Shown here piece by piece: positions 1,369 to 62,089 of a DNA stretch of 64,000 nucleotides. The notes beneath the pieces are model-generated. The model made no database searches. It worked only from the letters and a program-made list of their open reading frames with translations, and had not been told where the DNA came from. Within the stretch, counting starts at the first letter, position 1. Every line of letters begins with the position of its first letter. The translations under genes were made by a program, and so were the position numbers. Source of the DNA: an uncultured Gammaproteobacteria bacterium (GTDB taxonomy: Bacteria > Patescibacteriota > Patescibacteriia > UBA9934); NCBI GenBank assembly GCA_964613815.1, contig CAZTKG010000002.1, positions 118,299-182,298 of the forward strand, given 5' to 3'.

Positions 1369-2268
1369 ATGCGTACGTTGTTTCGATTGGCGATTGTGCT
1401 TTTGGTGGGGTATGGGGTGGTGTATTTTTTTGTTTTGCGTGGGGGAGGAGGGGAGGTGGTTCGGGTGGAGGTTGAGGAGGTGCGTTTTGAGGATGTTTTG
1501 GATGGTGGTGGCGCGGGTGATGACAGAATCATGCAGGATGAGATTGTTGATGAGGGGGAGGTTGAAGACGTTGATTCCGGAGAAGGGGACGAGGATTTGG
1601 ATGTTGATGATCATGATGACGTTATGCTGGATGAGGTTGCCGACGAGGGGGATCTCTCGACTTCGCTCGAGATGGGAATTGAGGAAATTGGTGGTTTACC
1701 TGCGGAGTTTAATTTGGCGGTACCGTTTACGTCTCAGGCGCCGCATGCGAATTGGGAGTTGCCTTATCAGGAGGCTTGTGAGGAGGCGAGTGCGTATATG
1801 GTGGCGGAATATTATGCCGGACGTGAGAGTGGGGTGATTGATGCGGGAGTGGCGGATGCGGCTATTTTGGAGGTTGTGGCGTTTCAGCAGGATTTGATTG
1901 GGGATTATTTGGATACGACGGCGGCAGAGACGGTGCAGTTTATTGATATGTTTTATGGGGTCGGGGCTCGGGTTGTCTATGATCCTGCCGTTGATGATAT
2001 TCGGGCGGAGATTGCGGCTGGGCGTCCGGTGATTTTGCCGGCTTCTGGGAAGGATCTTGAGAATCCGTTTTTTAGTGGCGACGGGCCGCTTTATCACATG
2101 CTTGTGATTAAGGGGTATGCGGATGGGGTGTTTATTGTGAATGATCCGGGGACGTATCGAGGGGAAAATTATGTGTATGATGAGGAGGTTTTGATGTCGG
2201 CGATGGGGGATTGGAATGGTGGGGACCCGGCGAATGGGGGGAAGGTTGTTATTTTTACGGAGAAATAA
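1369..2268 (+). CDS. C39-like peptidase domain protein (Peptidase_C39_2 / YvpB-like) with N-terminal TM helix and acidic linker
   Basis: The motif VPFTSQAP...QEACEEASAYMVAEYYAG matches the Peptidase_C39_2 signature (VP.I.Q.P...NGCE..S.AM...Y.G). It has an N-terminal TM helix and an acidic D/E-rich linker that contains an in-frame RPE-like repeat. Confidence 0.6.
   Translation: MRTLFRLAIVLLVGYGVVYFFVLRGGGGEVVRVEVEEVRFEDVLDGGGAGDDRIMQDEIVDEGEVEDVDSGEGDEDLDVDDHDDVMLDEVADEGDLSTSLEMGIEEIGGLPAEFNLAVPFTSQAPHANWELPYQEACEEASAYMVAEYYAGRESGVIDAGVADAAILEVVAFQQDLIGDYLDTTAAETVQFIDMFYGVGARVVYDPAVDDIRAEIAAGRPVILPASGKDLENPFFSGDGPLYHMLVIKGYADGVFIVNDPGTYRGENYVYDEEVLMSAMGDWNGGDPANGGKVVIFTEK
1647..1677. repeat. 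RPE-like palindromic element, half copy (right arm), in frame inside the C39-like peptidase gene
   Basis: GGGGATCTCTCGACTTCGCTCGAGATGGGA matches the right arm of the full copies at 4284 and 37603. It is translated as DLSTSLEMG. Confidence 0.7.
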
Positions 2269-2269: not shown

Positions 2270-3637
2270 ATGAATAATACGTTGTTTGATTTGATGCCTG
2301 AGGGAGGGGGAGAGATCTCTCCACAAGGTCGAGATGGGGAGGGGGCGGTTCGAGATGGGGAGGGGGCGGTTCGGGATGAGAGTGAGGAGAGTGGGGCTTT
2401 GACGGTGGCGAAGTATTTGCATTTAGTGAATGAGACGCTTGGGCTTATTCCGAGTGATCGGATGAAGGTGGTGGGGGAGATTGTTGATTACAGAGTGAGT
2501 CAGGGGAAGTGGATTAATTTTGATTTGAAAGATGAGGAAGAGGATGCGAAAATTTCTTGTTTTGCGACGACGTTTAAGGTGAAGGGGCAGTTTGAGAGTG
2601 GGATGAAGGTGGAGGTGATGGGGTATCCGAAGGTGTATGAGCGGTTTGGGAAGTTTAGTTTGAATGTGCAGAGTTTGGAGCTTGTTGGTGAAGGAGCGCT
2701 TCATAAGGCGTATTTGATGTTGAAGGCGCAGCTTGAGAAAGAGGGGTTGTTTGATGTGGGACGGAAGCGAGGGTTGAAGCGGTTTCCTCGGCGGATTGGG
2801 CTTATTACGAGTCGAGAGGCGGCGGCGTATGGGGACTTTATGCGGATTTTGGGGAATCGGTGGGGCGGTGTTGAGGTGGTGCATGCGCATGTGCATGTGC
2901 AGGGGCAGCATGCGGTGAATGATATTTTGAAAGCTTTTGATGATTTTAATTCTGTGAGTGACCGTGAGGATGCGCCGGATGTGATTGTGCTTACGCGTGG
3001 GGGAGGAAGCTTGGAGGATTTGCATGCGTTTAATGATGAGGCGGTGGCGCGGGCGGTTTATGGGAGTAAGATTCCGGTGGTTGTAGGGGTTGGGCATGAG
3101 CGAGATGAGAGTTTGTGCGATTTTGTGGCGGATGTGCGAGCGAGTACGCCGAGTAATGCGGCGGAGCGGATTGTGCCTGACAGGCGAGAGGTATTAGGCG
3201 AAGTTGATACGAGCGTGCGTCGGATGGGAGGGCAGATGATGATGGCGGTCGAGCGGCGGAAGCGGGGGATTGTGCAGGCGAGTAATGTGTTTGTGCGGTT
3301 TGTGCAAGGACAGGTGTATCGGTTGAAGAGTGTGTTGCAGCGATTGCATCATCGGTTTGGGGCGTTTCAGGAAGAGCTTGCGTTGTATCGGGTTGATATG
3401 GAGCGGATGGATCATACGATGGAAAGAGGGTTAACGGGTGTTGTGCGGCAGTATAAGGAGCGTGTGGGGGCTTTGGAGCGGTTTTTGGGGCAGGTGGATG
3501 TGCAACGGGTGTTGAAGCGTGGGTTTTCGATTGTGCGGCAGGGGGAGCGGGTTGTGACGCGGGCTGATGGGGTTGCTGGAGGGGATGTGGTCGATGTACA
3601 ATTGGCGCACGGGAAGATTCAGGCGGAGGTAAAATAA
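2270..3637 (+). CDS. xseA: Exodeoxyribonuclease VII large subunit
   Basis: There is an OB-fold N-terminus and an XseA catalytic region (GLITSREAAAYGDFMRILGNRW...). The ATG at 2270 directly follows the upstream stop. An in-frame RPE copy plus a 21-bp tandem duplication sit near the N-terminus. Confidence 0.85.
   Translation: MNNTLFDLMPEGGGEISPQGRDGEGAVRDGEGAVRDESEESGALTVAKYLHLVNETLGLIPSDRMKVVGEIVDYRVSQGKWINFDLKDEEEDAKISCFATTFKVKGQFESGMKVEVMGYPKVYERFGKFSLNVQSLELVGEGALHKAYLMLKAQLEKEGLFDVGRKRGLKRFPRRIGLITSREAAAYGDFMRILGNRWGGVEVVHAHVHVQGQHAVNDILKAFDDFNSVSDREDAPDVIVLTRGGGSLEDLHAFNDEAVARAVYGSKIPVVVGVGHERDESLCDFVADVRASTPSNAAERIVPDRREVLGEVDTSVRRMGGQMMMAVERRKRGIVQASNVFVRFVQGQVYRLKSVLQRLHHRFGAFQEELALYRVDMERMDHTMERGLTGVVRQYKERVGALERFLGQVDVQRVLKRGFSIVRQGERVVTRADGVAGGDVVDVQLAHGKIQAEVK
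2309..2372. repeat. RPE-like element (right arm) followed by 2 x 21-bp tandem duplication, in frame in xseA N-terminus
   Basis: GGAGAGATCTCTCCACAAGGTCGAGATGGGG is followed by GAGATGGGGAGGGGGCGGTTC twice. It is translated as EISPQGRDGEGAVRDGEGAVRD. Confidence 0.7.
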
Positions 3638-4283: not shown

Positions 4284-4341
4284 TCCCATCTCGACCGACC
4301 GAAGGGAGTGGAGAGATCTCTCGACTTCGCTCGAGATGGGA
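4284..4341. repeat. RPE-like palindromic element, full copy, intergenic (overlaps pyrH RBS region)
   Basis: TCCCATCTCGACCGACCGAAGGGAGTGGAGAGATCTCTCGACTTCGCTCGAGATGGGA has inverted arms CCCATCTCGAC/GTCGAGATGGG around a central AGATCT. Confidence 0.8.
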
Positions 4342-5326: not shown

Positions 5327-5566
5327 ATGTTTGAGGATGTTCTTTCTTTTCTTTTCTGTGTCCTTCTGCTTGGCGTCGTCTTCGCCATGGTGGGTGATGA
5401 GGTGGTGGATGATTCTGTCCCGCTTCTCGCCGCTCTCGCGCCGGAGAAGCCGAAGCAGCTTCGGTTCGTTCCGGTGCCGGTGGATTGGAATCCGGCGCTC
5501 GAAGAGCTGCTGGGCACGGTCCAGTTTGAGGGAGAGGATTACGCGATTCGGAGTTTGGGCAACTAG
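5327..5566 (+). CDS. Small hypothetical membrane protein (79 aa), GC-rich codon usage
   Basis: A GGGAGA RBS and the ATG at 5327. There is one TM helix. The ORF is flanked by the 35-bp direct repeats and has atypical C-ending codons. Confidence 0.3.
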   Translation: MFEDVLSFLFCVLLLGVVFAMVGDEVVDDSVPLLAALAPEKPKQLRFVPVPVDWNPALEELLGTVQFEGEDYAIRSLGN

Positions 5567-5648: not shown

Positions 5649-5685
5649 GATTCCGAATGGATCCTTCACTGCGCTCTGGATGACA
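5649..5685. promoter_or_regulatory. Conserved 37-bp motif GATTCCGAATGGATCCTTCAC-N8-GGATGACA (copy 1 of 3), upstream of rplJ
   Basis: The same motif occurs at 25347-25382 and 37723-37758, in each case right after a terminator-like hairpin and followed by a G-run. Confidence 0.4.
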
Positions 5686-6812: not shown

Positions 6813-6828
6813 TTGATTTCAAACAAAA

Positions 6829-6860
6829 AAACACCCATGCGTTTGCAGGGTGTTTTTTTG
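6829..6860. terminator. Bidirectional rho-independent terminator (A-run, ACACCC-loop-GGGTGT, T-run)
   Basis: AAAAAAACACCCATGCGTTTGCAGGGTGTTTTTTTG lies between the convergent genes rplL (+) and 6864-7145 (-). Confidence 0.75.
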
Positions 6861-6863
6861 TTT

Positions 6864-7145
6864 CTATTTCTTGCAAGACTTGCAAGATCCTTTGAGGAGG
6901 ATGAGGATACCGGACAAACCGATGAGGATTTGAATTAGCATCTCTAGCCAGTCCCAAGCGCCGAAAATCATGTTTACGACGTCGAGATCGAAGGCTCCAA
7001 CAAGTCCCCAGTTAAGTCCGCCAATGACGAGAAGCCAAAATGCGAGCGAATGGAGACCACATGCGTTGCCACACTTCATATGATCTTTGTTTATTACTAA
7101 TGTATTCAGCATATCACAAACTGTGCCTAAAATTAGCAGAGTCAA
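6864..7145 (-). CDS. DUF378-family small membrane protein
   Basis: GLNWGLVG motif and two TM helices. Confidence 0.5.
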   Translation of the reverse strand: MTLLILGTVCDMLNTLVINKDHMKCGNACGLHSLAFWLLVIGGLNWGLVGAFDLDVVNMIFGAWDWLEMLIQILIGLSGILILLKGSCKSCKK

Positions 7146-17423: not shown

Positions 17424-18395
17424 ATGATTCATGTGGCGCTTGAGCACGGAAATGATCGGAGGGGGATGGTGTATAAGTCGCTTCGAGAGACGAATGATTT
17501 TTTTGATGCGCTTCGAGAGAAGAAGCGTATTTTGATTAAGGTGAATTTGGTTCATCATGAGCTGCAGCTTGCGAGTACGCATGTGGATGCGGTTCGAGGG
17601 GTTTTGGATGCGATTCGGCAGGTGACAGGAATGCCGGTGGTGATTGGGGATGGGGCTTATCATGGAACGCCGGCGGCTTTTCGTCATTTTGGATATGATC
17701 GGCTCGTTGATGAATATGAGCAGGTTTCGCTTGTGGATTTGAATGAAGGGGGTGTGCGTGATGGGCATTCTATTCGGGCTGATGGAGGGAAGAATGCGAT
17801 TCGGCGGGCGGATTTGGCGCATGAGGTGGATTTTCGGATTTCGCTTACGCCGATGAAGATGGATCAGGATGTTGCGGTTTCGCTTAGTGTGAAAAATTGG
17901 GTGATGGGGACGTGGATTGTGCCGCCGAGGATTAGTGCTTCTGGGCGAGTTTGGGCGCGGTGGCCTTGGATGCATGAAGAGGGGATTTGGGCTCAGCATG
18001 CGACGATATCGTCGCTCTTTCAGCAGCTTCCTTGTGATTGGGCGGTGGTTGATGGGGTGCTTGCGATGCAGGGGGATGGACCGGTTCGGGGTACTGCGAT
18101 TGAGGGGGAGGTGGTATTATCTGGAGGAGATCCAGTTGCGGTAGATGCGGTGGCGGCGACGCTTATGGGGGTTGATCCTGGGGATGTTGGGTATTTATCT
18201 ATGCTTGCGGAAGCGGATGTTGGGGCGATTGATTTAGGGACGGTGAATGTGCCGCCGATGATGATGGCTCAGTTGACGCGTGTATTTGAGCGGCCTGTTT
18301 GGTTTGAGGATCGGCTTGGGAAATGGCGGAATGCGGCCATCTCGACTGGAATGGAAAGATCTCTCGACGCTGCTCGAGATGGGAGAGAAAATTGA
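17424..18395 (+). CDS. DUF362 domain-containing protein
   Basis: The DUF362-type N-terminus is RILIKVNLVHHE...VVIGDGAY. The last ~15 codons are contributed by an RPE-like element. Confidence 0.55.
   Translation: MIHVALEHGNDRRGMVYKSLRETNDFFDALREKKRILIKVNLVHHELQLASTHVDAVRGVLDAIRQVTGMPVVIGDGAYHGTPAAFRHFGYDRLVDEYEQVSLVDLNEGGVRDGHSIRADGGKNAIRRADLAHEVDFRISLTPMKMDQDVAVSLSVKNWVMGTWIVPPRISASGRVWARWPWMHEEGIWAQHATISSLFQQLPCDWAVVDGVLAMQGDGPVRGTAIEGEVVLSGGDPVAVDAVAATLMGVDPGDVGYLSMLAEADVGAIDLGTVNVPPMMMAQLTRVFERPVWFEDRLGKWRNAAISTGMERSLDAARDGREN
18336..18385. repeat. RPE-like palindromic element (full, short) forming the 3' end of the DUF362 gene
   Basis: GCCATCTCGACTGGAATGGAAAGATCTCTCGACGCTGCTCGAGATGGGA. 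It is translated as ISTGMERSLDAARDG. Confidence 0.7.
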
Positions 18396-25251: not shown

Positions 25252-25332
25252 TCCCATCTCGACCGAGTGTAATGAGTGGAGAGATCTGGTTTAACAGGGC
25301 TGCAGGATCTCTCCGCGTTGGTCGAGATGGGA
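25252..25332. repeat. RPE-like palindromic element (full, 81 bp with internal insertion) immediately after uvrB stop
   Basis: TCCCATCTCGACCGAGTGTAATGAGTGGAGAGATCTGG...GGATCTCTCCGCGTTGGTCGAGATGGGA, followed by a T-run, so it is a likely terminator. Confidence 0.8.
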
Positions 25333-25346
25333 TGGAAGAGGTTTTT

Positions 25347-25382
25347 GATTCCGAATGGATCCTTCGACCCTCAGGATGACAC
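25347..25382. promoter_or_regulatory. Conserved motif GATTCCGAATGGATCCTTCGAC-N7-GGATGACA (copy 2 of 3)
   Basis: It matches 5649-5685 and 37723-37758. Confidence 0.4.
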
Positions 25383-25785
25383 ACGGGGGAAGTGAAAGCC
25401 GCTCCCCGAACGAGGTCGGGGGGCGGCTAGGTGCAACACTGTTACGCCCGGTCGGTGAGCATCAATCTTGTGGACTGCGCAGGGTACCTGGGGTGCGGCG
25501 ATCGCGGTCCAGGATGGCGTCTACGTGATTTCCTCGAATGAGGTCCGATGGGTGGGCAGTACTGTTTGGTCGGTGGGGCGTATTGTGAGAACCCGCCACG
25601 GCCGAGGATGTACGTTTTCATCTTGCGTTCCGAATGATTCCGCATGCCGGTGGTGTGCTGCGCTTTACTGTGCGATGCTGAGCGATGCAAACGTTCGTGA
25701 ATCACGAGAAGCATGCAAGGTGATGTGATAGTGATTGCCTTTGTATTATAAGAAGGTTTGAGAGGAAATTGATAATTGATTGTGT

Positions 25786-28341
25786 ATGAAAGATAAAATT
25801 ACGATTAAAGGTGCGCGAGAGCATAACCTCAAAAATATTGATTTGGCGTTGCCGCGTAATAAATTGATTTGTTTTACGGGACTTTCTGGAAGCGGGAAGT
25901 CTAGTTTGGCGTTTGATACGATTTTTGCGGAAGGGCAGCGGCGGTATATTGAGAGTTTGAGTGCGTATGCGCGGCAGTTTTTGGGGCAGATGCAGAAGCC
26001 GGATGTGGATGAGATTGATGGGTTGAGTCCGGCGATTAGCATCGATCAAAAAGCGCATAGTCGGAATCCACGGTCGATTGTGGCGACGGTGACGGAGATT
26101 TATGATTATTTGCGTGTGTTGTATGCGCGTGTTGGAAAGGCGGTTTGCCCGACGTGTCGGAGTAGTATTGAGCGGATGGGGGTTGATGGGATTGTGGTGG
26201 CTGCTTTGCGGGATCTTGGTGAGCACCCGCGGCAGAAAGGAAGAGATCTCCCGACTTCGCTCGAGATGGGAAAATTATCAGGAGGTGAAGTTCAGATTTT
26301 GGCTCCGGTGATTCGAGGGCGGAAGGGGGAGTATTATCAGCTTTTGTATGATCTTTATAATCAGGGGTTTGCGAAAGTGCGCGTTGACGGGAAGGAGCAT
26401 CGGCTTAGTGAGAAAATTAAGTTATCGCGTTATAAGAAGCATGATATTGAAGTGATTATTGATACGATTCCGGCGACGGCATTGAAGGATCCGAGTCAGG
26501 ACGATCGGCAGCGGATTAATGAGGCGGTGGAGCGAGCAATTGAGGTTGGGGAGGATTTGGCGCTTGTGGTGTTTCCGGATGGGCATGAGCGGTTGTTTAG
26601 TACGAAGTTTAGTTGTGTGGATTGTGGGTTTTCGTTTCCGGAGATTGAGCCTCGGCTGTTTAGTTTTAATAGTCCTTATGGAGCATGTCAGCCTTGTGGG
26701 GGGCTTGGGACGACGGAGCTTTTTAGTGAAGATTTGTGTGAGGTTTGTGAAGGGGCTCGGCTTCGGCCTGAGGGGCGGAGTGTTTTGGTTGGAGGGAAGT
26801 CGATTGTGGAAGCCGTTGGGATGACGATTGGGAATAGTGCGCAATGGTTTTTGGAGCTTGAGCTGGATGAGCGGCAGATGGAGATTGCGGGAGCGGCGTT
26901 GAATGAGATTCAGAATCGTCTTTCTTTTCTTGATGATGTTGGGCTTGATTATTTGACGCTTGATCGGCGGGCGGGGACGCTCAGTGGTGGAGAGGCGCAG
27001 CGGATTCGGCTTGCGAGTCAGGTAGGATCAAGACTTGTGGGGGCGCTTTATGTTCTTGATGAACCTACAATTGGTCTCCATCAGCGGGACAATGAGCAGT
27101 TGATTCGGACTTTGGAAGATCTTCGAGATTTGGGGAATACGGTGATTGTGGTTGAGCATGATGAGGATACGATTCGGCGGTCGGATTTTATGGTTGAGAT
27201 TGGGCCCGGGGCTGGTGTGCATGGAGGGAATGTGATTGCGGCGGGGGAGGTGCCGGCGATTTTTGAGGATAAGAATTCTCGGACGGCGGCGTATATGCGA
27301 GGGGATGAGGGGATTGAGGTGCCGAAGAAGCGACGGAAGGTTGGGCGGGATAAGATTAAGGTTGTGGGGGCTGAGGCGCATAATTTGAAGAAGTTGAATG
27401 TGGAGTTTCCGCTTCGGCGGTTTGTGTGTGTGACGGGGGTGAGTGGGAGTGGGAAGTCAACGCTTGTGCATGATGTGATGTATAGCGCGCTTGCGAAAAA
27501 ATTGAATGGGCGGAAAAAGAAGCCTGGGAAGCATAAGGCGGTGATGGGGGTTGAGTATATTGATAAGATTGTTTTGATTAATCAGTCGGCGATTGGGCGG
27601 ACGAGTCGGTCGAATCCTGCGACGTATACCGGGGCTTGGGGGCCGATTCGGGAGTTGTTTGCGGCAACGGAAGAGGCACGGTTTCGTGGGTATAAGCCTG
27701 GGCGGTTTAGTTTTAATGTGCCCGGAGGTCGATGTGATAATTGTGATGGGCATGGGAAGATTGCGATTGAGATGCATTTTTTGCCGACGGTGCATGTGGA
27801 GTGTGATGTGTGTAAGGGGAAGCGATTTAGGCGGGAGACGCTTGAGGTTGTTTGGAATGAAAAGAATATTTGGCAGGTGCTTGATATGACGGTTGAGGAG
27901 GGGGCGGTGTTTTTTAAGAATGTTCCTACGGTGTTTGAGAAGTTGAAGACAATGAATGAGGTTGGGCTTGGGTATTTGAAGTTGGGACAGAGTGCGACGA
28001 CGCTCAGTGGAGGAGAGGCGCAGCGGGTGAAGCTCGCCACGGAACTATCGAAACGACAGACGGGACGGACGTTGTATATTTTGGATGAGCCGACGACGGG
28101 GTTGCATTTTGAAGACATTAAGAAGTTGCTTCAGGTGTTGCATCGGTTGGTGAGTAAGGGGAATTCTGTGGTTGTGATTGAGCATAATTTGGATGTGATT
28201 AAGACGGCGGATTGGATTATTGATTTGGGGCCTGATGGTGGGGAGCGTGGAGGGAAGCTTGTGATTGCGGGGACGCCGGAGGAGGTTGCGCGTTGTGCAC
28301 AGAGTGAGACGGGGAAATATTTGAAGCATTATGTTGATTGA
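25786..28341 (+). CDS. uvrA: Excinuclease ABC subunit A
   Basis: Two ABC ATPase modules (GLSGSGKSSL, GVSGSGKSTL; LSGGEAQR twice) with zinc-finger Cys clusters. It contains an in-frame RPE half-copy at 26239-26272. Confidence 0.9.
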   Translation: MKDKITIKGAREHNLKNIDLALPRNKLICFTGLSGSGKSSLAFDTIFAEGQRRYIESLSAYARQFLGQMQKPDVDEIDGLSPAISIDQKAHSRNPRSIVATVTEIYDYLRVLYARVGKAVCPTCRSSIERMGVDGIVVAALRDLGEHPRQKGRDLPTSLEMGKLSGGEVQILAPVIRGRKGEYYQLLYDLYNQGFAKVRVDGKEHRLSEKIKLSRYKKHDIEVIIDTIPATALKDPSQDDRQRINEAVERAIEVGEDLALVVFPDGHERLFSTKFSCVDCGFSFPEIEPRLFSFNSPYGACQPCGGLGTTELFSEDLCEVCEGARLRPEGRSVLVGGKSIVEAVGMTIGNSAQWFLELELDERQMEIAGAALNEIQNRLSFLDDVGLDYLTLDRRAGTLSGGEAQRIRLASQVGSRLVGALYVLDEPTIGLHQRDNEQLIRTLEDLRDLGNTVIVVEHDEDTIRRSDFMVEIGPGAGVHGGNVIAAGEVPAIFEDKNSRTAAYMRGDEGIEVPKKRRKVGRDKIKVVGAEAHNLKKLNVEFPLRRFVCVTGVSGSGKSTLVHDVMYSALAKKLNGRKKKPGKHKAVMGVEYIDKIVLINQSAIGRTSRSNPATYTGAWGPIRELFAATEEARFRGYKPGRFSFNVPGGRCDNCDGHGKIAIEMHFLPTVHVECDVCKGKRFRRETLEVVWNEKNIWQVLDMTVEEGAVFFKNVPTVFEKLKTMNEVGLGYLKLGQSATTLSGGEAQRVKLATELSKRQTGRTLYILDEPTTGLHFEDIKKLLQVLHRLVSKGNSVVVIEHNLDVIKTADWIIDLGPDGGERGGKLVIAGTPEEVARCAQSETGKYLKHYVD
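26239..26272. repeat. RPE-like element (right arm) in frame inside uvrA
   Basis: GGAAGAGATCTCCCGACTTCGCTCGAGATGGGA is translated as RDLPTSLEMG, immediately before the conserved ILAPVIRGRKGE segment. Confidence 0.75.
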
Positions 28342-28367: not shown

Positions 28368-28506
28368 GTCGGCGTCGAGGTGCCGTGCGACGTCGGGTCG
28401 GGACACCTTTAGCGTCAAGCCCGTTTATTTTTGCTACAGGATGGATGGGGCTGGAGCGGCGGTGTCATATCCTCCGCCTCCTTACGCACGGCACCTCGAC
28501 GCCGAC
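28368..28506. repeat. Inverted-repeat element: 22-bp perfect arms (GTCGGCGTCGAGGTGCCGTGCG / CGCACGGCACCTCGACGCCGAC) around a ~95-bp GC-rich core, in the uvrA-uvrC spacer
   Basis: Direct sequence comparison: the arms at 28368-28389 and 28485-28506 are exact reverse complements. Confidence 0.7.
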
Positions 28507-32050: not shown

Positions 32051-32118
32051 TATTCGTCGTTCTCTCGGATTTTCCGGGGGATTTTTTATTTGGATGGGCG
32101 CGCGCTTTGTGTTCTGTG

Positions 32119-32231
32119 TCATCTCGACCTTGCTGGAGAGATCTCATCCTGCCAGCACGGCTGATATTTACCGACGTCGGTGATCATTGCTCGCGGTACC
32201 GAAGAGGGTCTCTCCAGCAAGGTCGAGATGA
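32119..32231. repeat. MITE-like composite RPE-family element: 23-bp perfect terminal inverted repeats (GTCATCTCGACCTTGCTGGAGAG) flanking a ~65-bp core
   Basis: The arms are exact reverse complements and share the CATCTCGACC/GGTCGAGATG ends with the RPE family. It is intergenic, upstream of mraZ. Confidence 0.75.
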
Positions 32232-32528
32232 CAACGGGGGAGTGGGGGATGGTTTTTTATATATATCTGACGTTCTGTGGATAGTTGTGGTTGCTGGTGG
32301 GGGCGTGGTGGGTTATAGTGGGGGCAACGAGGCACAAAGTGGGGCGCCCCGCAATTTTCGTTTGCGGAGCTCGAGTCGTAAGACTCCATGTTCGGGAAAC
32401 TTCCCCCTGTCAGGAATTGTTGTAACGCTTACTCTCGGTGAGCATGCGCCAACGATTCGTGATAGGAATCGATCAACCGCGTGTTCTTTCCTTTGCGCGA
32501 CGTTAGCCGTTAAGGCGACGTTAAAACA

Positions 32529-34155: not shown

Positions 34156-34186
34156 GAAGAGATCTCTCCACAGCGGTCGAGATGGC
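34156..34186. repeat. RPE-like element, right-arm half copy, intergenic
   Basis: GGAAGAGATCTCTCCACAGCGGTCGAGATGG. Confidence 0.7.
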
Positions 34187-36762: not shown

Positions 36763-36790
36763 GAGGCGACCTGAGAGGGTCGTCTTTTTT
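36763..36790 (+). terminator. Rho-independent terminator GGCGACC-TGAGAG-GGTCGTC-TTTTTT
   Basis: Sequence inspection. Confidence 0.7.
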
Positions 36791-36794
36791 GTAT

Positions 36795-36864
36795 CCCATC
36801 TCGAGCGCAGTCGCGAGATCTGATGGCGGCAGGGTTGCAAGATCTCTCCACAAGGTCGAGATGG
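36795..36864. repeat. RPE-like palindromic element (full copy), intergenic upstream of nth
   Basis: TCCCATCTCGAGCGCAGTCGCGAGATCTGATGGCGGCAGGGTTGCAAGATCTCTCCACAAGGTCGAGATGG. Confidence 0.8.
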
Positions 36865-36887
36865 CAATGAGATGAGTAGTTTGATTT

Positions 36888-37640
36888 ATGACAAAGCGCG
36901 AAGAAAACATTAGACAAATTTTAGCGGTTTTGAAAAAGCGTTGGCCTACGCCTGGAGCGATGGAGATTGGGAATGCGTATATGGCGGTGGTGGCAGTTGC
37001 GCTTAGTGCTCGGACGCGGGATGAGCAGGTTTTGAAGTTGTTGCCGCGGTTTTTTGGGGTGTATCCGACACCTTTGGCGTTATCAAAAGCGACGCCTGAG
37101 GAGATTGAGGGGTACATTAACACGATCGGGATGTATCGGCAGAAGGCGCGGAATTTGCAGAAGATGGCGGTGCGGGTTTGTGAAGTTTATGATGGGAAGA
37201 TTCCTGGTAATATGGAGGATTTGACATCGCTTGCGGGGGTTGGGCGGAAGACAGCGAGTGTGATTTTGCCGTATATTTTTGGGAAGCCGGCGATTGCGGT
37301 GGATACGCATGTGCATCGGGTGACGAATCGGCTTGGATGGGTGAAGACGCAAATGCCGGCGGAGACGGAGAAGGCGCTTTTGAAGATTGTGCCGGAGGAT
37401 GTGCATCCGACGGTGAATCGGGTGTTTGTGAAGCATGGGCGGTATGTCTGTATTTCGAAGCCTCGATGTTGGGCGTGTCCGGTGCGGGATATGTGTCCGT
37501 TTGCGGAGAAGAATTTGGTGGAGCCGAAGGATGCTGAGGAGATTTTGGTGGATATTGAGCGGAGGGAGGAGGTGGTTCAGCGGCTTCGGGAGGGGGTTGA
37601 GGTCCCATCTCGACCGAATGAAGTGAGTGGAGAGATCTGA
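36888..37640 (+). CDS. nth: Endonuclease III (DNA-(apurinic or apyrimidinic site) lyase)
   Basis: HhH-GPD motif (LTSLAGVGRKTASVIL), catalytic Asp (AVDTHVHRV) and the 4Fe-4S cluster C-x6-C-x2-C-x5-C. The last 12 codons come from an RPE element. Confidence 0.85.
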   Translation: MTKREENIRQILAVLKKRWPTPGAMEIGNAYMAVVAVALSARTRDEQVLKLLPRFFGVYPTPLALSKATPEEIEGYINTIGMYRQKARNLQKMAVRVCEVYDGKIPGNMEDLTSLAGVGRKTASVILPYIFGKPAIAVDTHVHRVTNRLGWVKTQMPAETEKALLKIVPEDVHPTVNRVFVKHGRYVCISKPRCWACPVRDMCPFAEKNLVEPKDAEEILVDIERREEVVQRLREGVEVPSRPNEVSGEI

Positions 37641-37707
37641 TTATGGTGGGGATGAAGGGGTGGACGACGGGAGGATTGCAAGATCTCTCCACAAGGTCGA
37701 GATGGGG
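37603..37707. repeat. RPE-like palindromic element (full, 105 bp); left arm supplies the C-terminus and stop of nth, right arm + T-run acts as terminator
   Basis: TCCCATCTCGACCGAATGAAGTGAGTGGAGAGATCTGA...CAAGATCTCTCCACAAGGTCGAGATGGGGA followed by GGGGTTTTTTT. Confidence 0.8.
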
Positions 37708-37722
37708 ATGAGGGGTTTTTTT

Positions 37723-37758
37723 ATTTCGAATAGATCCTTCACTTTGTTCTGGATGACA
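37723..37758. promoter_or_regulatory. Conserved motif TATTTCGAATAGATCCTTCAC-N8-GGATGACA (copy 3 of 3), followed by TATACT -10-like box at 37779
   Basis: It matches the copies at 5649 and 25347. Confidence 0.4.
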
Positions 37759-48624: not shown

Positions 48625-48668
48625 GCTTGATACAAAAGTGGTCCGTACGGACCACTTTTGTATCAAGC
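48625..48668. repeat. 44-bp perfect palindrome GCTTGATACAAAAGTGGTCCGTAC|GTACGGACCACTTTTGTATCAAGC
   Basis: Exact self-complementarity. It shares the 16-bp core TGGTCCGTACGGACCA with the palindrome at 48767. Confidence 0.8.
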
Positions 48669-48766
48669 AAGTGAGTTGGTCTGGTCGATGATTCGTCCAT
48701 TTTTTGTTTACATGGTTTTATTTGTTTTCTTCTTGATGAAAAAGATGAACATGTATAGCGCGTTTT

Positions 48767-48810
48767 GCCTGTATTAATAATGGTCCGTACGGACCATTAT
48801 TAATACAGGC
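48767..48810. repeat. 44-bp perfect palindrome GCCTGTATTAATAATGGTCCGTAC|GTACGGACCATTATTAATACAGGC
   Basis: Exact self-complementarity. It has the same core as 48625 but different arms. Confidence 0.8.
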
Positions 48811-48862
48811 AGAGCTGTTTGATTTTATGGGGAGAGTTGAGTCGGATGAGGGAAGGGGATAG

Positions 48863-49974: not shown

Positions 49975-50065
49975 AGAGGGGTTGTCCACAATGAGGGATC
50001 TGATGATGTGATTTTATCACAGCCTCAAGATGATGTGGGTTCGGTGTTTGATATACTTTATATAT

Positions 50066-50254
50066 ATGAAAAAGAAAAAGGTTGAGGATACATTTGGTTA
50101 TAAGGGGTGGATGAATTCGGATAATATTTGGAAGCGGATGTTTGGGGTGTTTGGGTATTATACGCTTGCGAATATTGTGATTACGCTTGGGATGCTTTTG
50201 GTGTTTGGAGTGTTTGTGTTTTTAGGGTTTTTGGTGACTTGGTTGGTTCGGTAG
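50066..50254 (+). CDS. Small membrane protein (62 aa)
   Basis: Lys-rich N-terminus then two TM helices. Followed by a bidirectional terminator. Confidence 0.3.
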   Translation: MKKKKVEDTFGYKGWMNSDNIWKRMFGVFGYYTLANIVITLGMLLVFGVFVFLGFLVTWLVR

Positions 50255-50270
50255 ATTTGATTTTTATTTG

Positions 50271-50297
50271 GTTTCAAAAAAGAGCTTCAAAGCTCTT
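50271..50297. terminator. Bidirectional terminator AAAAAAGAGCTTCAAAGCTCTTTTTTG
   Basis: Perfect hairpin flanked by A- and T-runs. It marks the left edge of the AT-rich island. Confidence 0.75.
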
Positions 50298-50602
50298 TTT
50301 TGTGCTGCCGAGATCAGCTATGTGCCGGGAGGGTCGAGTTGAGCTCGATTGCCTCGCTCAGCAGTTTTCGGTTGGAAGATCTGCGAAGCTCAGCTTCGCT
50401 AGACACCGATCTTCAAACCGAGCTGAGCTCGGTGGCGGACCGGACGGGTTGAGTAACAAGGTTTGGGAGGTTTTGTAAGGGCTTTTGGGATATTATTTCT
50501 AGACGAATTTCAGGCACTCGGGTCGGGGTCTTTTTTGGGAACTTGAGACAAAATGAGACAGTAGTTAAAAAAATGGGGGGCTAAATCATAAAATCACGGC
50601 TT

Positions 50603-51109
50603 ATGAAAATTCCCAAAGACCTAGTTCAAGAACTTAAGGATATTCATCAAGAAAAGACAGGTAAAACGTTGAGTAATGAAGACGCGCTTGAGGGAGCAAA
50701 CAACTTAACCAATTTCGCCAAGCTTCTACTGGACTGTGCTGAGCGCGATCGTAAACGTAAACTGCAGCTCAAAGAGTCGCCAAAGGGTTTCCATCTTCCC
50801 GAAGGAGAACGTTACAATTGTTTCATTTGCCACAATGTAGTTTCAGGAGAATCAAGTTGGTACAGCAAGCACGGGATCACGTGTCTTATTTGCAAGGAAG
50901 CTTTGAGGAAGCGAGTCATTCCAGTGAGTGTCATGCGCAATCGTGATAGCTGGTTAGCGATGTGGGAAGTGAAGAAGCTTCTTGTACTACACCACTCCAC
51001 CATACTAAAAATGATCCGCACTGGTAAACTAAAGGCGCGGATCATTAAAAATGGAGAGCGTGATTACTTTTGGGTGTTTTTGAAGAAAGAGAATCGTCTA
51101 CTCACCTAA
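50603..51109 (+). CDS. Zn-ribbon (CxxC...CxxC) protein with C-terminal HTH-like segment (possible excisionase/MerR-like regulator)
   Basis: CFICHN...CLICKE zinc ribbon. [17 protein letters not shown] resembles a MerR/Xis-type HTH. The gene is AT-rich. Confidence 0.4.
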
Positions 51110-52306
51110 GTCGGCGTCACCATCTGAAAGTTCTTCAAACTTAGCTGTCATTGTAGGATTGCCTCGTGTCAATTTTTTAATCGTCAGATCTTCCGCCTTA
51201 TTATTGGCGAGACGCAGGTTGTTTTCAGAAGACAGGAGGGCCGCCTTAGTCTTTTGAAGATGATTGATTGTTTTATCGATTTCATCAATGGCAGTTTTGA
51301 ATCTACGACTCGCAAGATCGTAGTTTTTTGCGAACCCTTCCTTAAAGACGTTTATCCGATCTTCAAAATTTGTAATGTCCACATTTTGGCTTCGCATCAA
51401 AGCAAGTTCTGCTTTGTATTCGAGAGAGTTCATTGCGGCGTTGCGGAGCAGTGTAATCATCGGAATAAAGAATTGCGGACGAACTACGTACATCTTAGGG
51501 TATTTATGAGACACGTCGACAATACCTGTGTTATACAGTTCATTTTCGGTCTCCAAGAGCGTTACCAGAACAGCATATTCACAATTTTTCTCTGTGCGGT
51601 CTTTATCAAGCTCACGTAAAAAGTCTTCGTTCTTTTTCTTTGTGGCAGTTTCATCGCCTTCATTTTTCATTTCGAACATGATAGAAGTAATTTCATTCCC
51701 AGCTTCGTCGGTTTCCCGATAAATGTAATCGCCCTTACTTCCGGTTTTGGAATCATTATCCTTTTCAAAATATGCATTTTGAAAAGCAGTTGCACGGAGT
51801 TTGTTGAACTCAGTTTCACAATGCTGTTCCAGGGTCTCCCCAAGCATTTTGGTGCTGAGTTTTAATTTCATGTCCTTGTAACGCTCAATCATTTCATCCT
51901 TTGACTTTAATTCATTTTCATACTTTTCCTTCATAGAAACTTCGCGCAGCTCCATTTCATGCTCCTTGCTTTGCAACTTATTCTTGAGATGGTCTCGTTC
52001 TTTTTCGATGGAATTAACTGCCTCTGTTACGGCGAGTTTTTTCTCAAGAGCCTCACTCTCCATTTTTGACTTGAGAGAAGCTATCTCGGAGTCTTTTTTT
52101 ACAAGGTCTTCCTGCATTGAATTCTTTAGATTGGCCTCAGCGAGTTTCACGGCATCTTCTTGCTGTCTCTCGGCTAAAGATAGGCGATCATGCAGTTCTT
52201 TTTCAAACTGATCGTCACGAACTTGTTTGAGAATATCCGCGAACCCAGCTTCATCTACTTTGAAAGTCTTTTTACAGTGCGGGCAATTGATGGTTTGGTC
52301 GGTCAT
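51098..52306 (-). CDS. DUF2130-like protein: N-terminal Zn-ribbon (CPHC), long coiled coil, C-terminal globular domain
   Basis: [19 protein letters not shown]... then a ~200-aa coiled coil and a C-terminal KGDYIYRE...[12 protein letters not shown] segment, consistent with the DUF2130 architecture. Confidence 0.5.
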
Positions 52307-52399
52307 ACAGGGTTTGGTTTATTGGTTAGAAACTTGACGCATCTCTTGTTTATGGTAATATCACGTTCAGATATAAGTGTCAAACTCTGAATAAGAAAT

Positions 52400-53281
52400 A
52401 TGCAATCAATACCCTCTCAGGATCAAGCTTTGCTCAATCTGGGCAAAATCAACGGCTGGATTGACTCCTCACCTGTCGCAACCGTCATGCGCCATTCTAT
52501 GGCAAATTTAGCATTTGAGCTTACAAAAGCAGATCTTCAAGTAGAAATCGACATTGGTAACCTGCTTTCAATCTCTGATTCTCCAATTACATCAAAACGA
52601 TTCAAGAAAGTCTTTCTCGATCCTCTTGTGGGAAATGATTATGCTGTGGTCTTACAAAAAGTCCATCAACAAATATTCGCACAGAGTGAAGGGTATCAAT
52701 TTCAACCAGGGCAATTGCGATCGGAGAATACCCCTGGACAAATACAGGGCATTATTAACAAAATTGATGAGAGCAGTGATTCTCCATTCGCAAAGGCCCT
52801 AGATCTTCATAAGAATTTTCTAGACCTAAAACCATTTAATAACGGAAATGAAATCATTGCAGCTCTGCTACCAAATATATACCTAACTCATCGAGGTGTA
52901 ATGCTTGCGCCCATACTAAGCTTTCATAATTTCCCTGCACAAGGCGATGATGCAGATGAGTGGTTTCAAGACCAAACAAATCTTATCATCACTCTCTTGC
53001 ACGAAATTCGAGATTTGGAGCAAGAATACAAAAGTCGAACTAATGGATTTGCAACACAGCGTAAAAAACTTTTCTCAGGACTTTTGCCTTTTATGATGAA
53101 ACGTCCGAAGTTTACGATTCAAGAATTACTGGATGAATATGGACAAAGTACATATCAAACCATTAATGAACTATTCAAAGATCTGGTAAAGCTCAATGTG
53201 CTAAAGGAGCTTACGGGAAATGCGCGGTTCAGAGTCTTTCACCTTCACGAATATTCAAATCTTTTCAAAACAATCGTATGA
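52400..53281 (+). CDS. Fic/DOC-family-like protein with degenerate active-site motif (KPFNNGNE in place of HPFx[DE]GNGR)
   Basis: Fido-like length and helical pattern, with the motif-like segment LDLKPFNNGNEIIAALL. It sits just upstream of hsdM, a position frequently occupied by Fic genes in Type I R-M loci. Confidence 0.45.
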   Translation: MQSIPSQDQALLNLGKINGWIDSSPVATVMRHSMANLAFELTKADLQVEIDIGNLLSISDSPITSKRFKKVFLDPLVGNDYAVVLQKVHQQIFAQSEGYQFQPGQLRSENTPGQIQGIINKIDESSDSPFAKALDLHKNFLDLKPFNNGNEIIAALLPNIYLTHRGVMLAPILSFHNFPAQGDDADEWFQDQTNLIITLLHEIRDLEQEYKSRTNGFATQRKKLFSGLLPFMMKRPKFTIQELLDEYGQSTYQTINELFKDLVKLNVLKELTGNARFRVFHLHEYSNLFKTIV

Positions 53282-61272: not shown

Positions 61273-61281
61273 CCGCTGTCT

Positions 61282-61956
61282 ATGTTGAAAAGTACCGAAC
61301 ACATCCTCAGGGAAGCATCTGAAAATTTTGCCAAATCCATAGCACAAATACAGGAGCCTTTTAAGAAATTTGAAAGAACCATTGCATCATTTACAGAACC
61401 TATTCGAAAATTTGAGGAGCAAATAAAGCAACAACAAGATGCATTTGCTCAAATGAATAAATTTTTGGCCGCTGTTGATCTACCCAAAATAGTCGCTAGC
61501 GACATATTAGATGCATGGGCTGTTCAAGGCGTAGATATTGATGAATATGTTGAAAACTCTGCTGAGCTTGCAGAAGATTTGAGTTACGATTTTGCTGAAT
61601 CTCTTGAGGAGGTCATTGAAAAGCATTCAAAAGAAACTGGCACCACTCAAATTCGACTTACCTCCAATGGAAGAATGTTTCATATTGATTCCCCTGATAA
61701 GGACCATGAACTATCTGAACAAATGGAAAAATTCTTTCGTGCACTGAAGAAAGGGTTTACTGCAACAGACAAACTTGTCACTGTGAGCGGCTATGCGACT
61801 GAGCGCAGTCTACGAACTGCGGCCAATAAGTTGAATCGTTTAGGTCGCGGAAAATTAGGTTTGAGCGTTCCGATTGCCGTTGGTAAGCGAGGAAAGGGCT
61901 ACAGATTGGGGAGGCGTATTCATGTTCATAGGTTACCAAACAAGCTCGATAGATAG
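61282..61956 (+). CDS. Hypothetical protein (224 aa) downstream of hsdR
   Basis: Clean ORF with a basic C-terminal tail (GRGKLGLSVPIAVGKRGKGYRLGRR). Followed by a strong terminator. Confidence 0.45.
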   Translation: MLKSTEHILREASENFAKSIAQIQEPFKKFERTIASFTEPIRKFEEQIKQQQDAFAQMNKFLAAVDLPKIVASDILDAWAVQGVDIDEYVENSAELAEDLSYDFAESLEEVIEKHSKETGTTQIRLTSNGRMFHIDSPDKDHELSEQMEKFFRALKKGFTATDKLVTVSGYATERSLRTAANKLNRLGRGKLGLSVPIAVGKRGKGYRLGRRIHVHRLPNKLDR

Positions 61957-61972
61957 ATACAGTGGATAACTA

Positions 61973-62007: not shown

Positions 62008-62089
62008 AGCGAGACTAGATGGGTGCTGTATGTCCGATGTACGAGACTAAATGGGATGATTCCTTTGTAAATCACTTAAAACAAGGAAT

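What the first reader, a model, noticed from the sequence alone, without database searches (positions are those of the whole stretch)
26239..26272. In-frame repeat insertion inside uvrA (RDLPTSLEMG) without disrupting the reading frame
The RPE right arm sits inside the UvrA coding region, immediately N-terminal to the conserved ILAPVIRGRKGE segment, and is read through in frame. The protein continues with all downstream ABC and Zn-finger motifs intact. This mirrors Rickettsia palindromic elements, which insert into protein-coding genes and contribute new peptide segments. Similar in-frame copies occur in xseA (2309-2339, EISPQGRDG) and the C39-like peptidase (1647-1677, DLSTSLEMG). The same element is tolerated in three different reading frames.
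Basis: partly seen in the sequence, partly recalled or inferred. Interest (0 to 1): 0.7.

Follow-up and report, generated by a model that had tools for sequence, protein, structure and literature searches.

The report
Repeat half-unit read through inside uvrA
A 33-base piece of a dispersed palindromic repeat sits in frame inside the DNA-repair gene uvrA of an uncultured Patescibacteria (Uhrbacteria-like) bacterium, adding 11 amino acids to a floppy, length-variable surface loop; this resembles a phenomenon known from Rickettsia and is most likely harmless.

Summary
Window 26239-26271 (GGAAGAGATCTCCCGACTTCGCTCGAGATGGGA) is one arm of a dispersed palindromic repeat. The window holds 16 arms, and a 29-nt search gave 4 hits against 0 expected. 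The arm lies in frame in uvrA (25786-28341, 851 aa) and encodes G152-RDLPTSLEM-G162. None of the 119 closest orthologs carries this peptide. The closest syntenic relative has no copy of the repeat in 14.7 kb. Six independent assemblies give identical uvrA DNA.

The insert sits in a loop that varies in length across the clade: the modal span is 15-18 residues, and here it is 30. AlphaFold2 models the loop as disordered coil (pLDDT below 50 for residues 148-165). It lies between a helix and a strand of the UvrB-binding domain.

- Only a half-unit is present. It folds no better than shuffled sequence, whereas full inverted pairs fold strongly and are intergenic.
- Intragenic copies are rare. The C39-peptidase copy is truly intragenic and uses the same frame as uvrA. 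The xseA copy lies in an N-terminal extension that orthologs lack and may be 5' leader.

In other Uhrbacteria the same UvrA loop carries a different dispersed hairpin repeat.

Unexpectedly, identical arms, loops included, are abundant intergenic repeats in Anaerococcus.

Verdict: a real, probably neutral, RPE-like event and a new member of a known kind.

The parts
26239..26271 (+). 33-nt half-unit (right arm, form 'GAC-TTCG-CTC') of the palindromic repeat. It lies in frame in uvrA and encodes G R D L P T S L E M G (residues 152-162 counted from M at 25786).
   Evidence: It differs by 1 mismatch in 29 nt from the copy at 4313 and by 2 from the copy at 1649. It has no stop codon in any of the six frames.
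25786..28341 (+). uvrA coding sequence, 851 aa, intact.
   Evidence: P0001 is 100% identical. The score against solved UvrA structures is 1046 bits.
26227..26280 (+). Codons 148-165, the low-confidence coil of the UvrB-binding domain that contains the insert. It lies between helix 133-145 and strand 168-179.
   Evidence: pLDDT below 50 for 148-165. (the loop varies in length among orthologs). (the region aligns to gaps at the 'SYPER' loop of 2R6F).
1647..1677 (+). Solo right arm inside the C39-like peptidase gene (1369-2268), encoding GDLSTSLEMG in the same frame as uvrA. It lies in the acidic variable linker between the N-terminal hydrophobic segment and the C39 domain.
2309..2340 (+). Solo right arm (form 'CAC-AAG-GTC'), followed by a tandem duplication of 21 nt (2329-2372). 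It lies in the 38-codon N-terminal extension of the annotated xseA, or in its 5' leader.
   Evidence: Most orthologs start 0-5 residues before LTVAxYL. An alternative start TTG at 2399 is preceded by GAGGAG.
4284..4341 (+). Compact full palindrome: an inverted long arm plus a short arm sharing a central AGATCT. It is intergenic, upstream of an amino-acid-kinase-family gene.
   Evidence: -29.5 kcal/mol, z = -3.4.
18335..18385 (+). Full inverted pair overlapping the last codons and the stop of the DUF362 gene. The tail reads ...RSLDAARDGREN*, which is the third frame.
25252..25333 (+). Full inverted pair in the uvrB-uvrA spacer, 5 nt after the uvrB stop.
   Evidence: -46.5 kcal/mol, z = -6.9.
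32117..32235 (+). Full element with perfect 25-nt inverted arms around a 67-nt centre. It is intergenic, upstream of mraZ.
   Evidence: I9; -72.3 kcal/mol, z = -9.8.
34156..34186 (+). Solo right arm, intergenic, upstream of the phosphoglycerate mutase gene.
36794..36868 (+). Full inverted pair, intergenic, directly after a terminator-like hairpin at 36763-36786.
37603..37710 (+). Full inverted pair. Its left arm supplies the last codons of the HhH-GPD glycosylase gene (...PSRPNEVSGEI*).
   Evidence: -45.1 kcal/mol, z = -4.6.

Best explanation
A half-unit of about 33 nt from a dispersed palindromic repeat became lodged in uvrA. The repeat resembles REP/BIME elements or MITEs, and its full form is an inverted pair of arms that lies between genes. 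The landing site is a surface loop of the UvrB-binding domain that tolerates length changes.

The piece is 11 codons long and has no stop codon in any frame, so the ribosome should simply read through it. The result is an 11-residue, probably disordered, extension of the loop (GRDLPTSLEMG) with no expected loss of UvrA function.

Shown here:
- the identity of the segment with the repeat family;
- its in-frame position in an intact gene;
- its absence from all close orthologs, and the absence of the repeat from the syntenic relative;
- its presence in all six independent assemblies of this population that were read;
- the variable length of the loop and its low model confidence.

Inferred:
- the route of entry, either insertion of a whole element followed by loss of one arm, or insertion or recombination of a single arm;
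- neutrality of the insert;
- that only short, in-frame, stop-free copies in permissive loops survive selection, which would explain why intragenic copies are rare half-units;
- actual translation of the insert.
For: Repeat identity: the 29-nt core has 4 hits against 0 expected, and the family has 16 arms in the window.

Lineage-specific insertion:
- The 36 aligned orthologs (71-77% identity) lack the peptide.
- None of the 120 listed proteins other than the query has SLEMG or DL.TS. The modal loop span is 15-18 residues against 30 here.
- A codon alignment to the closest relative shows a gap of 13 codons.
- That relative's syntenic 14.7 kb holds no arm, while the window holds 13 TCGAGATGG and 5 CCATCTCGA sites.

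Not an artefact: six assemblies from different samples carry identical uvrA DNA.

Intact gene: 1046 bits to solved UvrA, with all motifs present.

Permissive site: in the AlphaFold2 model, residues 148-165 have pLDDT below 50 and lie between helix 133-145 and strand 168-179.

Half-unit:
- The single arm folds at -6.8 kcal/mol with z = +0.7.
- Full pairs fold at -29 to -72 kcal/mol with z from -3.4 to -9.8.
- Full pairs are all intergenic or at gene ends.

Independent replicate: another Uhrbacteria UvrA (L200) carries a different 38-nt hairpin repeat in the same loop. A second copy with 2 mismatches lies in its uvrA-uvrC spacer. L206 carries the same box plus a nested repeat segment.

Stop-free property: all 9 right arms are open in 6 of 6 frames, against 12% of random 33-mers from the same DNA.
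Against: - No relative closer than 77% amino-acid identity was found. The exact insertion boundaries, any target-site duplication and the age of the event therefore cannot be fixed.
- The loop is so variable that the alignment around the gap is ambiguous.
- No transposase or REP-associated tyrosine transposase was found in the window, so mobility of the family is inferred only from its dispersed copies.
- The C content of the insert (8 of 33) is only in the top 8% of uvrA windows, which is weak compositional support.
- Neutrality is untested. The loop lies in the domain that binds UvrB, and its distance from the interface was not measured.
- There is no transcript or peptide evidence.
Confidence: 0.8

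Rival explanations
1. The insert is functional rather than a passenger. The extra peptide could tune the contact between UvrA and UvrB, or the DNA or RNA motif inside the gene could be kept as a binding or regulatory site.
For: - The loop lies in the UvrB-binding domain.
- The arm sequence is strikingly invariant, even across phyla, which suggests that something recognises it.
- The insert is identical in all six sampled assemblies.
Against: - The peptide is modelled as disordered.
- 119 orthologs do without it, and about 40% of them carry unrelated expansions in the same loop.
- The lone arm has no above-chance structure.
- The uvrA copy carries a T-to-C change in the otherwise conserved TCTC.
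- The same peptide also occurs in an unrelated acidic linker of a peptidase.
Confidence: 0.1
2. The extra residues arose by local loop expansion (slippage or duplication) typical of this variable region. The resemblance to the repeat is coincidental or convergent.
For: - The loop expands by many unrelated sequences in other orthologs.
- For P0035, P0070, P0008 and P0101 no repeat origin was found in the available flanks.
Against: - The 29-nt core has 0 to 2 mismatches to distant copies, with 0 chance matches in 100 shuffles.
- The arm, including its TTCG loop, matches 26 of 27 nt to copies in other genomes.
Confidence: 0.02
3. The segment is an assembly or binning artefact, or uvrA here is a decaying pseudogene that merely remains open.
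For: The contigs are metagenome-assembled, and repeats can cause misjoins.
Against: - Six independent assemblies (JGI, ENA, Logan) give identical DNA.
- The repeat (28-33 nt) is too short to be an obvious cause of a misjoin (inference).
- The frame is open for 851 codons with every catalytic and zinc motif conserved, and the protein is 71-77% identical to orthologs over 100% of its length.
- uvrB and uvrC flank it intact.
Confidence: 0.02
4. The insert is removed after transcription or translation (mini-intron or intein-like), so it never appears in mature UvrA.
For: None beyond the fact that the segment is foreign to the gene.
Against: - 33 nt (11 aa) is far below the size of any self-splicing intron or intein (established knowledge).
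- No Rfam family matches anywhere near it.
- The lone arm shows no significant folding.
Confidence: 0.01

Closest known systems
Rickettsia palindromic elements (RPEs; Ogata et al. 2000, 2002, as summarised in PMC10969869)
   Same: - A dispersed palindromic repeat is found in frame inside housekeeping genes.
- It has no stop codons, is read through, and adds a peptide at a position compatible with the fold.
- It occurs in a small, reduced genome.
   Different: - RPEs are whole elements of about 150 bp (PMC10969869). Here only one arm of 33 nt (11 aa) is present.
- Nearly half of RPEs lie in ORFs. Here 2 of 16 arms do.
- The host phylum differs (Patescibacteria, not Alphaproteobacteria).
- Sequence relatedness to RPEs could not be tested.
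REP / BIME / REPIN elements of Enterobacteria and Pseudomonas (own knowledge of the family)
   Same: - Short imperfect palindromes of two size classes occur here (26-28 nt and 35-36 nt).
- They are arranged as inverted pairs and mosaics with variable linkers.
- They are overwhelmingly intergenic and sit just after stop codons or terminators.
- Every copy keeps exactly one CxC mismatch in the stem.
   Different: - No REP-associated tyrosine transposase was seen (window only).
- There is no conserved GTAG-like 5' tetranucleotide.
- Single arms are not stable hairpins.
- REPs are by definition extragenic, whereas this copy is intragenic.
Bacterial MITEs with intragenic in-frame copies (intragenic ERIC, BOX, Correia, cyanobacterial MITEs; PMC10969869)
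   Same: - It is non-autonomous, with terminal inverted arms. Element 32117-32235 has perfect 25-nt inverted ends.
- Occasional in-frame fusions with host ORFs occur.
- Copies supply C-terminal tails and stop codons to genes (18335, 37603).
   Different: - No target-site duplication could be recognised.
- No parent insertion sequence is known.
- The intragenic copy is a half-element.

Membership tests
Rickettsia palindromic element (RPE) | The sequence belongs to one of the described RPE families of Rickettsia. | not testable with these tools
   No RPE consensus was available; PMC186582 is not held. The host is Patescibacteria/Uhrbacteria-like. No Rfam, plasmid or phage match was found.
Rickettsia palindromic element (RPE) | A whole palindromic element of about 100-150 bp is inserted, encoding a peptide of about 30-50 aa. 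| tested here: not met
   Only one arm of 33 nt (11 aa) is present. No left arm (CATCTCGA) occurs in uvrA. The lone arm has z = +0.7.
Rickettsia palindromic element (RPE) | The element is in frame, free of stops, and located where the protein fold tolerates it. | tested here: met
Rickettsia palindromic element (RPE) | A high proportion of copies lies inside ORFs. | tested here: not met
   Two of 16 arms in the window are clearly internal to a coding sequence (uvrA, C39). Only the uvrA copy among 105 strict-pattern copies is embedded in a real gene.
REP/BIME (REPIN) | Short imperfect palindromes occur in many dispersed, mostly extragenic copies. | tested here: met
   There are 16 arms in 50 kb, 14 of them extragenic or at gene ends. 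All 109 copies have one CxC mismatch. Caveat: single arms fold no better than shuffles.
REP/BIME (REPIN) | Units of different size classes are arranged in inverted pairs or mosaics. | tested here: met
   Long (35-nt) inverted arms are paired with short (26-28-nt) arms in the window. They occur in tandem mosaics of period 258 in L166.
REP/BIME (REPIN) | A cognate REP-associated tyrosine transposase (Y1 HUH transposase) is present in the genome. | tested here: inconclusive
   No transposase domain was found in about 55 window ORFs scanned against Pfam. The rest of the genome, at least 579 kb, could not be read.
MITE | Terminal inverted repeats are present. | tested here: met
   32117-32141 and 32209-32233 are 25 nt and 100% complementary (I9). 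Other pairs are 75-93% complementary.
MITE | Target-site duplications are present, and a related autonomous insertion sequence exists. | tested here: inconclusive
   No consistent flanking direct repeat was seen around 10 copies. No insertion sequence was found in the window or in the plasmid and phage collections.

The most novel reading that the evidence does not exclude
The arm in uvrA belongs to a single, almost invariant palindromic repeat family shared by two unrelated phyla: Uhrbacteria-like Patescibacteria (about 50% GC) and the Bacillota genus Anaerococcus (27-35% GC).

The copies are identical down to their unconstrained loop variants. Every copy keeps exactly one stem mismatch. This would imply either inter-phylum spread of an undescribed non-autonomous mobile element with its mobiliser, or recognition by a widely conserved factor.

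In Patescibacteria, such hairpin repeats would also repeatedly remodel the same permissive protein loops, acting as an RPE-like engine of loop evolution in reduced genomes.
Probability: 0.3. Interest if true: 0.6.

Novelty: new member of a known kind. Interest (0 to 1): 0.35.

Why it matters
If it holds, 'selfish DNA inside protein-coding genes', described as unusually frequent in Rickettsia, also occurs in the Candidate Phyla Radiation, another lineage of small genomes.

It also gives a natural tolerance map for UvrA. One loop of the UvrB-binding domain accepts at least two unrelated repeat-derived peptides in different lineages.

In practice, it warns annotators of metagenome-assembled genomes that short odd peptides such as SLEMG or PLERG, N-terminal extensions and C-terminal tails can derive from repeats.

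The more interesting lead is the by-product. The same hairpin repeat occurs unchanged in Anaerococcus and in Uhrbacteria, no mobiliser was found, and no held paper contains the motif.

Tried and rejected
- Loose genome scan (GATCTCYC..TCGAGATGG). Only L025, L042, L061, L079, L098 and L122 were useful.
- Rfam, at gathering threshold on the window and at E-value threshold on repeat-rich loci and the uvrB-uvrA spacer. Nothing matched the repeat.
- BLAST of the 58-nt full element against plasmids and phages. No match. An IMG/VR scan gave one copy on a 30% GC viral contig, which was uninformative.
- Full-text search for the motif. It returned only unrelated papers (HIV, cell biology and FRET-reporter work). 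Searches for palindromic repeats in Patescibacteria found nothing relevant. The Ogata 2002 paper is not held.
- A repeat origin for the loop expansions of P0101, P0035, P0070 and P0008. No convincing second copy lay in the available flanks. A 16-nt match inside uvrB of L202 (E = 0.02) was judged too weak. DNA for P0003 and P0014 was unavailable.
- The idea that full elements act as intrinsic terminators. The scan does not call them, and separate canonical terminators precede two of them.
- The idea that each arm is a stable hairpin. It was rejected because z is about 0.
- Reading the G/C anti-correlation in the arm as a base pair. The two positions cannot pair in any simple register. It may only reflect two clonal subfamilies.
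- Variation among XseA cluster members. It was only a difference in the called start codon, plus one A/G substitution.
Full report
**1. The observation**

Window 26239-26272 reads GGAAGAGATCTCCCGACTTCGCTCGAGATGGGAA. It lies inside a single long open frame, 25780-28341. With the ATG at 25786 this gives an 851-aa protein whose local sequence is ...ALRDLGEHPRQKGRDLPTSLEMGKLSGGEVQILAPVIRGRKGEYY....

The 29-nt core has four matches with up to 3 mismatches in the window: 1649 (2 mismatches), 4313 (1), 26243 (0) and 36794 on the minus strand (3). One hundred dinucleotide-preserving shuffles gave none. Repeat finding and motif listing show 10 arms in this orientation (1651, 2313, 4314, 18357, 25306, 26244, 32209, 34160, 36840, 37681) and 6 inverted arms (4284, 18335, 25252, 32117, 36794, 37603).

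**2. The host gene and organism**

The protein is UvrA.
- It scores 1046 bits against solved UvrA structures (9GXK, 2R6F), with both ABC modules aligned end to end.
- It is flanked by uvrB and uvrC.
- The closest database proteins are from 'Patescibacteria group' and 'Candidatus Uhrbacteria' genomes, at 71-77% identity over 100% of the length. Most are 836-840 aa long.
- The identical protein occurs on 12 contigs from several samples. In six independent assemblies that were read, the uvrA DNA is identical to the window base for base. An assembly artefact is therefore excluded.

**3. Is it an insertion?**

- In an alignment of the 36 closest orthologs, none has the peptide. The region between the helix ending ...VDxVL and the strand xEVxILAPV is a length-variable loop.
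- Over all 120 listed proteins, that span has a mode of 15-18 residues (67 of the 111 that could be parsed). Here it is 30. SLEMG, LEMG and DL.TS occur only in the query.
- A codon alignment with the closest relative (L007, 77% identity) shows a 13-codon gap covering the repeat.
- L007 is syntenic (uvrB-uvrA-uvrC ... mraZ-rsmH ... iPGM ... HhH-GPD). It contains no arm in 14.7 kb, whereas the window has 13 TCGAGATGG and 5 CCATCTCGA sites.

The unit shared by the three TTCG-loop copies is about 33 nt, or 11 codons, which matches the excess length. Because the nearest relative is only 77% identical and the loop is unalignable, the exact boundaries and any target duplication cannot be determined.

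**4. Where it sits in the protein**

An AlphaFold2 model built from the ortholog alignment has mean pLDDT 81 and pTM 0.69. It places helix 133-145, then coil 146-167 with pLDDT below 50 for residues 148-165, then strand 168-179. The repeat-encoded residues (G152 to G162 by codon count from 25786) lie entirely in that low-confidence coil.

In the sequence alignment to Geobacillus UvrA (2R6F) the segment aligns to gaps at the short 'SYPER' loop. That loop lies between the two cysteine pairs of the first zinc module, in the UvrB-binding domain. The domain's existence is from PMC7835731; its boundaries are from my own knowledge of 2R6F. I could not measure the distance to the UvrB interface.

**5. 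What the repeat is**

Each arm has the form AGATCTCTC[G/C]AC-loop-[C/G]TCGAGATGGG(A).
- There is a short class (loop of 3-5 nt, total 26-28 nt) and a long class (loop of about 12 nt, such as TCCCTTCGGTCG, total 35 nt).
- Full elements are an inverted long arm plus a short arm, separated by 0-67 nt: 4284-4341, 18335-18385, 25252-25333, 32117-32235, 36794-36868 and 37603-37710.
- Folded as single strands, full elements are very stable: -29.5 to -72.3 kcal/mol, z from -3.4 to -9.8, with 0 of 200 shuffles as good.
- Lone arms, including the uvrA copy, fold no better than shuffles: -6.8 kcal/mol, z from -0.1 to +0.7.
- Full elements are all intergenic or overlap only the last codons of a gene.
- Two sit just after canonical terminator-like hairpins, and the elements themselves are not called as terminators.

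The structural unit is therefore the inverted pair, and uvrA holds only half of it. No Rfam family matches. Plasmid and phage BLAST searches found nothing, and no held paper contains the motif. No transposase domain was found in about 55 window ORFs on both strands.

The architecture most resembles REP/BIME elements or MITEs: two size classes, inverted pairs, mosaics and extragenic position. Membership in either family is unproven.

**6.

*C39-like peptidase (1369-2268).* The arm at 1647-1677 is truly intragenic. It lies in the acidic, poorly conserved linker between the N-terminal hydrophobic segment and the Peptidase_C39_2 domain (residues 119-263 of the open frame). It is read in the same frame as in uvrA (GDLSTSLEMG).

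*xseA.* The arm at 2309-2340 and a 21-nt tandem duplication lie in a 38-residue N-terminal extension. Most of the 17 aligned orthologs (55-62% identity) start 0-5 residues before LTVAxYL. Two (P0127, P0149) have longer, unrelated N-termini, and none carries the repeat. An in-frame TTG at 2399, preceded by GAGGAG, would give MTVAKYL, like ortholog P0139 (MTVGDYL). The arm may therefore be untranslated leader. Gene callers in the databases chose the upstream ATGs.

*Frames.* uvrA and C39 share one frame, and xseA uses a second. The third is used only where the DUF362 gene runs into the element at 18357 (...RSLDAARDGREN*). All nine right arms are stop-free in all six frames, against 12% of random 33-mers from the same DNA.

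**7. An independent replicate**

Other Uhrbacteria UvrA proteins have their own expansions in this loop.

*P0023 (locus L200).* The loop DNA contains GGCAACCCCCTCCCACTCCCCCTTGGAAAGGGGGAGGG, a different hairpin repeat. A second copy with 2 mismatches in 38 nt lies in the uvrA-uvrC spacer of the same contig.

*P0117 (locus L206).* The same box is present in the loop. It is interrupted by a 30-nt segment that has its own copy (93% identity, E = 1e-7) elsewhere on the contig.

*P0101, P0035, P0070 and P0008.* No repeat origin was detectable in the available flanks.

At least two unrelated repeat families have thus ended up in frame in the same UvrA loop in different lineages. Either the loop is a preferred target or, more simply, it is one of the few places where such insertions survive.

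**8. Mechanism**

*Shown:* a repeat-family half-unit is present, in frame, in an intact and conserved gene. It sits in a variable loop modelled as disordered, is specific to this lineage, and is present in every sampled assembly.

*Inferred:*
- The element entered by the same unknown process that disperses the family, or by recombination with another copy.
- One arm was lost, or only one arm ever entered. A full palindrome of -30 to -70 kcal/mol and 20-40 extra residues would be more harmful.
- The copy persists because it is 11 codons long, free of stops and in a tolerant loop.
- It is translated and has little or no effect.

I put about 0.8 on this passenger-in-a-permissive-loop reading. A functional role for the peptide or motif gets about 0.1. 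It cannot be excluded, because the loop is in the UvrB-binding domain and the motif is unusually invariant. Chance resemblance, artefact or pseudogene, and post-transcriptional or post-translational removal are each at or below 0.02.

**9. Comparison with known systems**

It works like an RPE: selfish palindromic DNA read through inside a housekeeping gene at a fold-compatible position (PMC10969869, citing Ogata 2000 and 2002). It fails two defining RPE features tested here, namely insertion of a whole element and a high intragenic fraction. Its sequence relationship to RPEs could not be tested.

Its genomic architecture is REP/BIME-like or MITE-like. The cognate transposase and target duplications that would establish membership were not found in the limited sequence available.

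**10. An unexpected by-product**

An exact-pattern scan of metagenome contigs returned 73 stretches carrying about 97 further distinct copies. Almost all lie on contigs of 27-35% GC. Exact protein look-ups identify these contigs as Anaerococcus (A. vaginalis, hydrogenalis and senegalensis group). A cultured isolate, A. ihuae, has the arms too.

- The arms are identical to those of the window even in the loops, which the search pattern left free. Examples are CAC-TCCCTTCGGTCG-GTC, GAC-TTCG-CTC and CAC-AAG-GTC.
- In all 109 copies the two G/C positions are strictly anti-correlated, so every arm has exactly one CxC mismatch. A perfect stem is never seen.
- In Anaerococcus, none of the copies is embedded in a convincing gene.
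- Variant arms occur in other Uhrbacteria and Patescibacteria genomes (L061, L079, L122).

How one short repeat stays identical in a 50% GC Patescibacteria genome and in a 30% GC Bacillota genus is unexplained. It is the most novel lead here.

**11. Verdict**

It is a genuine in-frame repeat-derived insertion. However, it is a half-unit of an undescribed REP/MITE-like family, a rare event rather than a pervasive RPE-like habit, and translation is not shown. Novelty: a new member of a known kind. Interest: about 0.35 for the finding itself. The cross-phylum repeat family and the recurrent hits on one UvrA loop would rate higher if followed up.

Noticed in passing
L127-L199 (for example L150:5871-5905, L166:1494-1903), L025, L098; compare window 4284-4341: The same repeat arm, loop variants included, is an abundant intergenic repeat (about 97 distinct copies in 414 kb) on 27-35% GC contigs. 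Exact protein look-ups assign these contigs to Anaerococcus. The result is cross-phylum identity with the roughly 50% GC Uhrbacteria-like window.
   Followed up: partly
all 109 arms in the window and L127-L199: The two G/C positions of the arm are strictly anti-correlated (GAC..CTC or CAC..GTC). Every copy therefore has exactly one CxC mismatch. Neither the perfect palindrome nor the double mismatch ever occurs.
   Followed up: partly
L200:955-1000 and L200:3155-3200; L206:3261-3325 and L206:211-239: In two other Uhrbacteria the same UvrA loop carries a different dispersed hairpin repeat (CCCCTCCNACTCCCCCTTGGAAAGGGGGAGGG, peptide ..SPLERGRE..). In L206 it also carries a nested 30-nt repeat segment. 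Second copies lie in neighbouring spacers.
   Followed up: yes
window 25786-28341 (UvrA residues about 310-313): This UvrA, and apparently the whole clade of roughly 838-aa Uhrbacteria UvrA, lacks the DNA-contacting 'insertion domain' of about 115 residues. Query residue 310 aligns to 2R6F chain position 303, and query residue 313 to position 419.
   Followed up: no
window 1-50000: GC skew is extreme, +0.3 to +0.54 in most 2-kb windows. G is about 37% and C about 13% in uvrA. Almost all genes lie on the + strand. The skew also creates many long spurious antisense ORFs.
   Followed up: no
window 50000-64000: A region of foreign composition (GC 0.38-0.42, skew about 0.1). It carries DUF2130, a Fic protein, a type I restriction-modification set (HsdM, HsdS, DUF6119, HsdR) and two ParB-N/N6_N4 DNA methylases. 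It contains no copy of the repeat and is probably an acquired defence island.
   Followed up: partly
window 25390-25720: The uvrB-uvrA spacer is 540 nt, whereas the two genes abut in a relative. After the repeat modules it holds about 330 nt of C-balanced sequence unlike the rest of the strand. It has no Rfam match at E up to 1. It could be a structured RNA or a gene remnant.
   Followed up: partly
window 5660-5685, 25358-25381, 37733-37758: A second small repeat family, GATCCTTC-(loop)-GGATGACA, preceded by TTTGATTCCGAATG. Two of its three copies sit immediately downstream of a full element of the first family, giving mosaic modules.
   Followed up: no
window 48625-48668 and 48766-48811: Two perfect palindromes of 44 and 46 nt share the core TGGTCCGTACGGACCA. 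They lie about 100 nt apart after the DsbA-like gene, within about 1.5 kb of where base composition changes.
   Followed up: no
window 28368-28389 and 28485-28506: A perfect 22-nt inverted repeat with 95 nt between the arms fills the uvrA-uvrC spacer. It is another candidate small palindromic element.
   Followed up: no
window 2329-2372: A 21-nt tandem duplication (GGTTCGAGATGGGGAGGGGGC, peptide GEGAVRD twice) extends the 3' end of the arm in the xseA leader. A similar TCGAGATGGGGA duplication occurs in Uhrbacteria UBA12070 (L079:1867-1895).
   Followed up: no
L061:5353-5474 and 6828-6949: In another Uhrbacterium the arm is part of two 122-nt inverted copies (86% complementary). One of them (5330-5479) is bounded by 23-nt terminal inverted repeats. 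They flank a 1.35-kb segment containing tRNA-like sequences.
   Followed up: no
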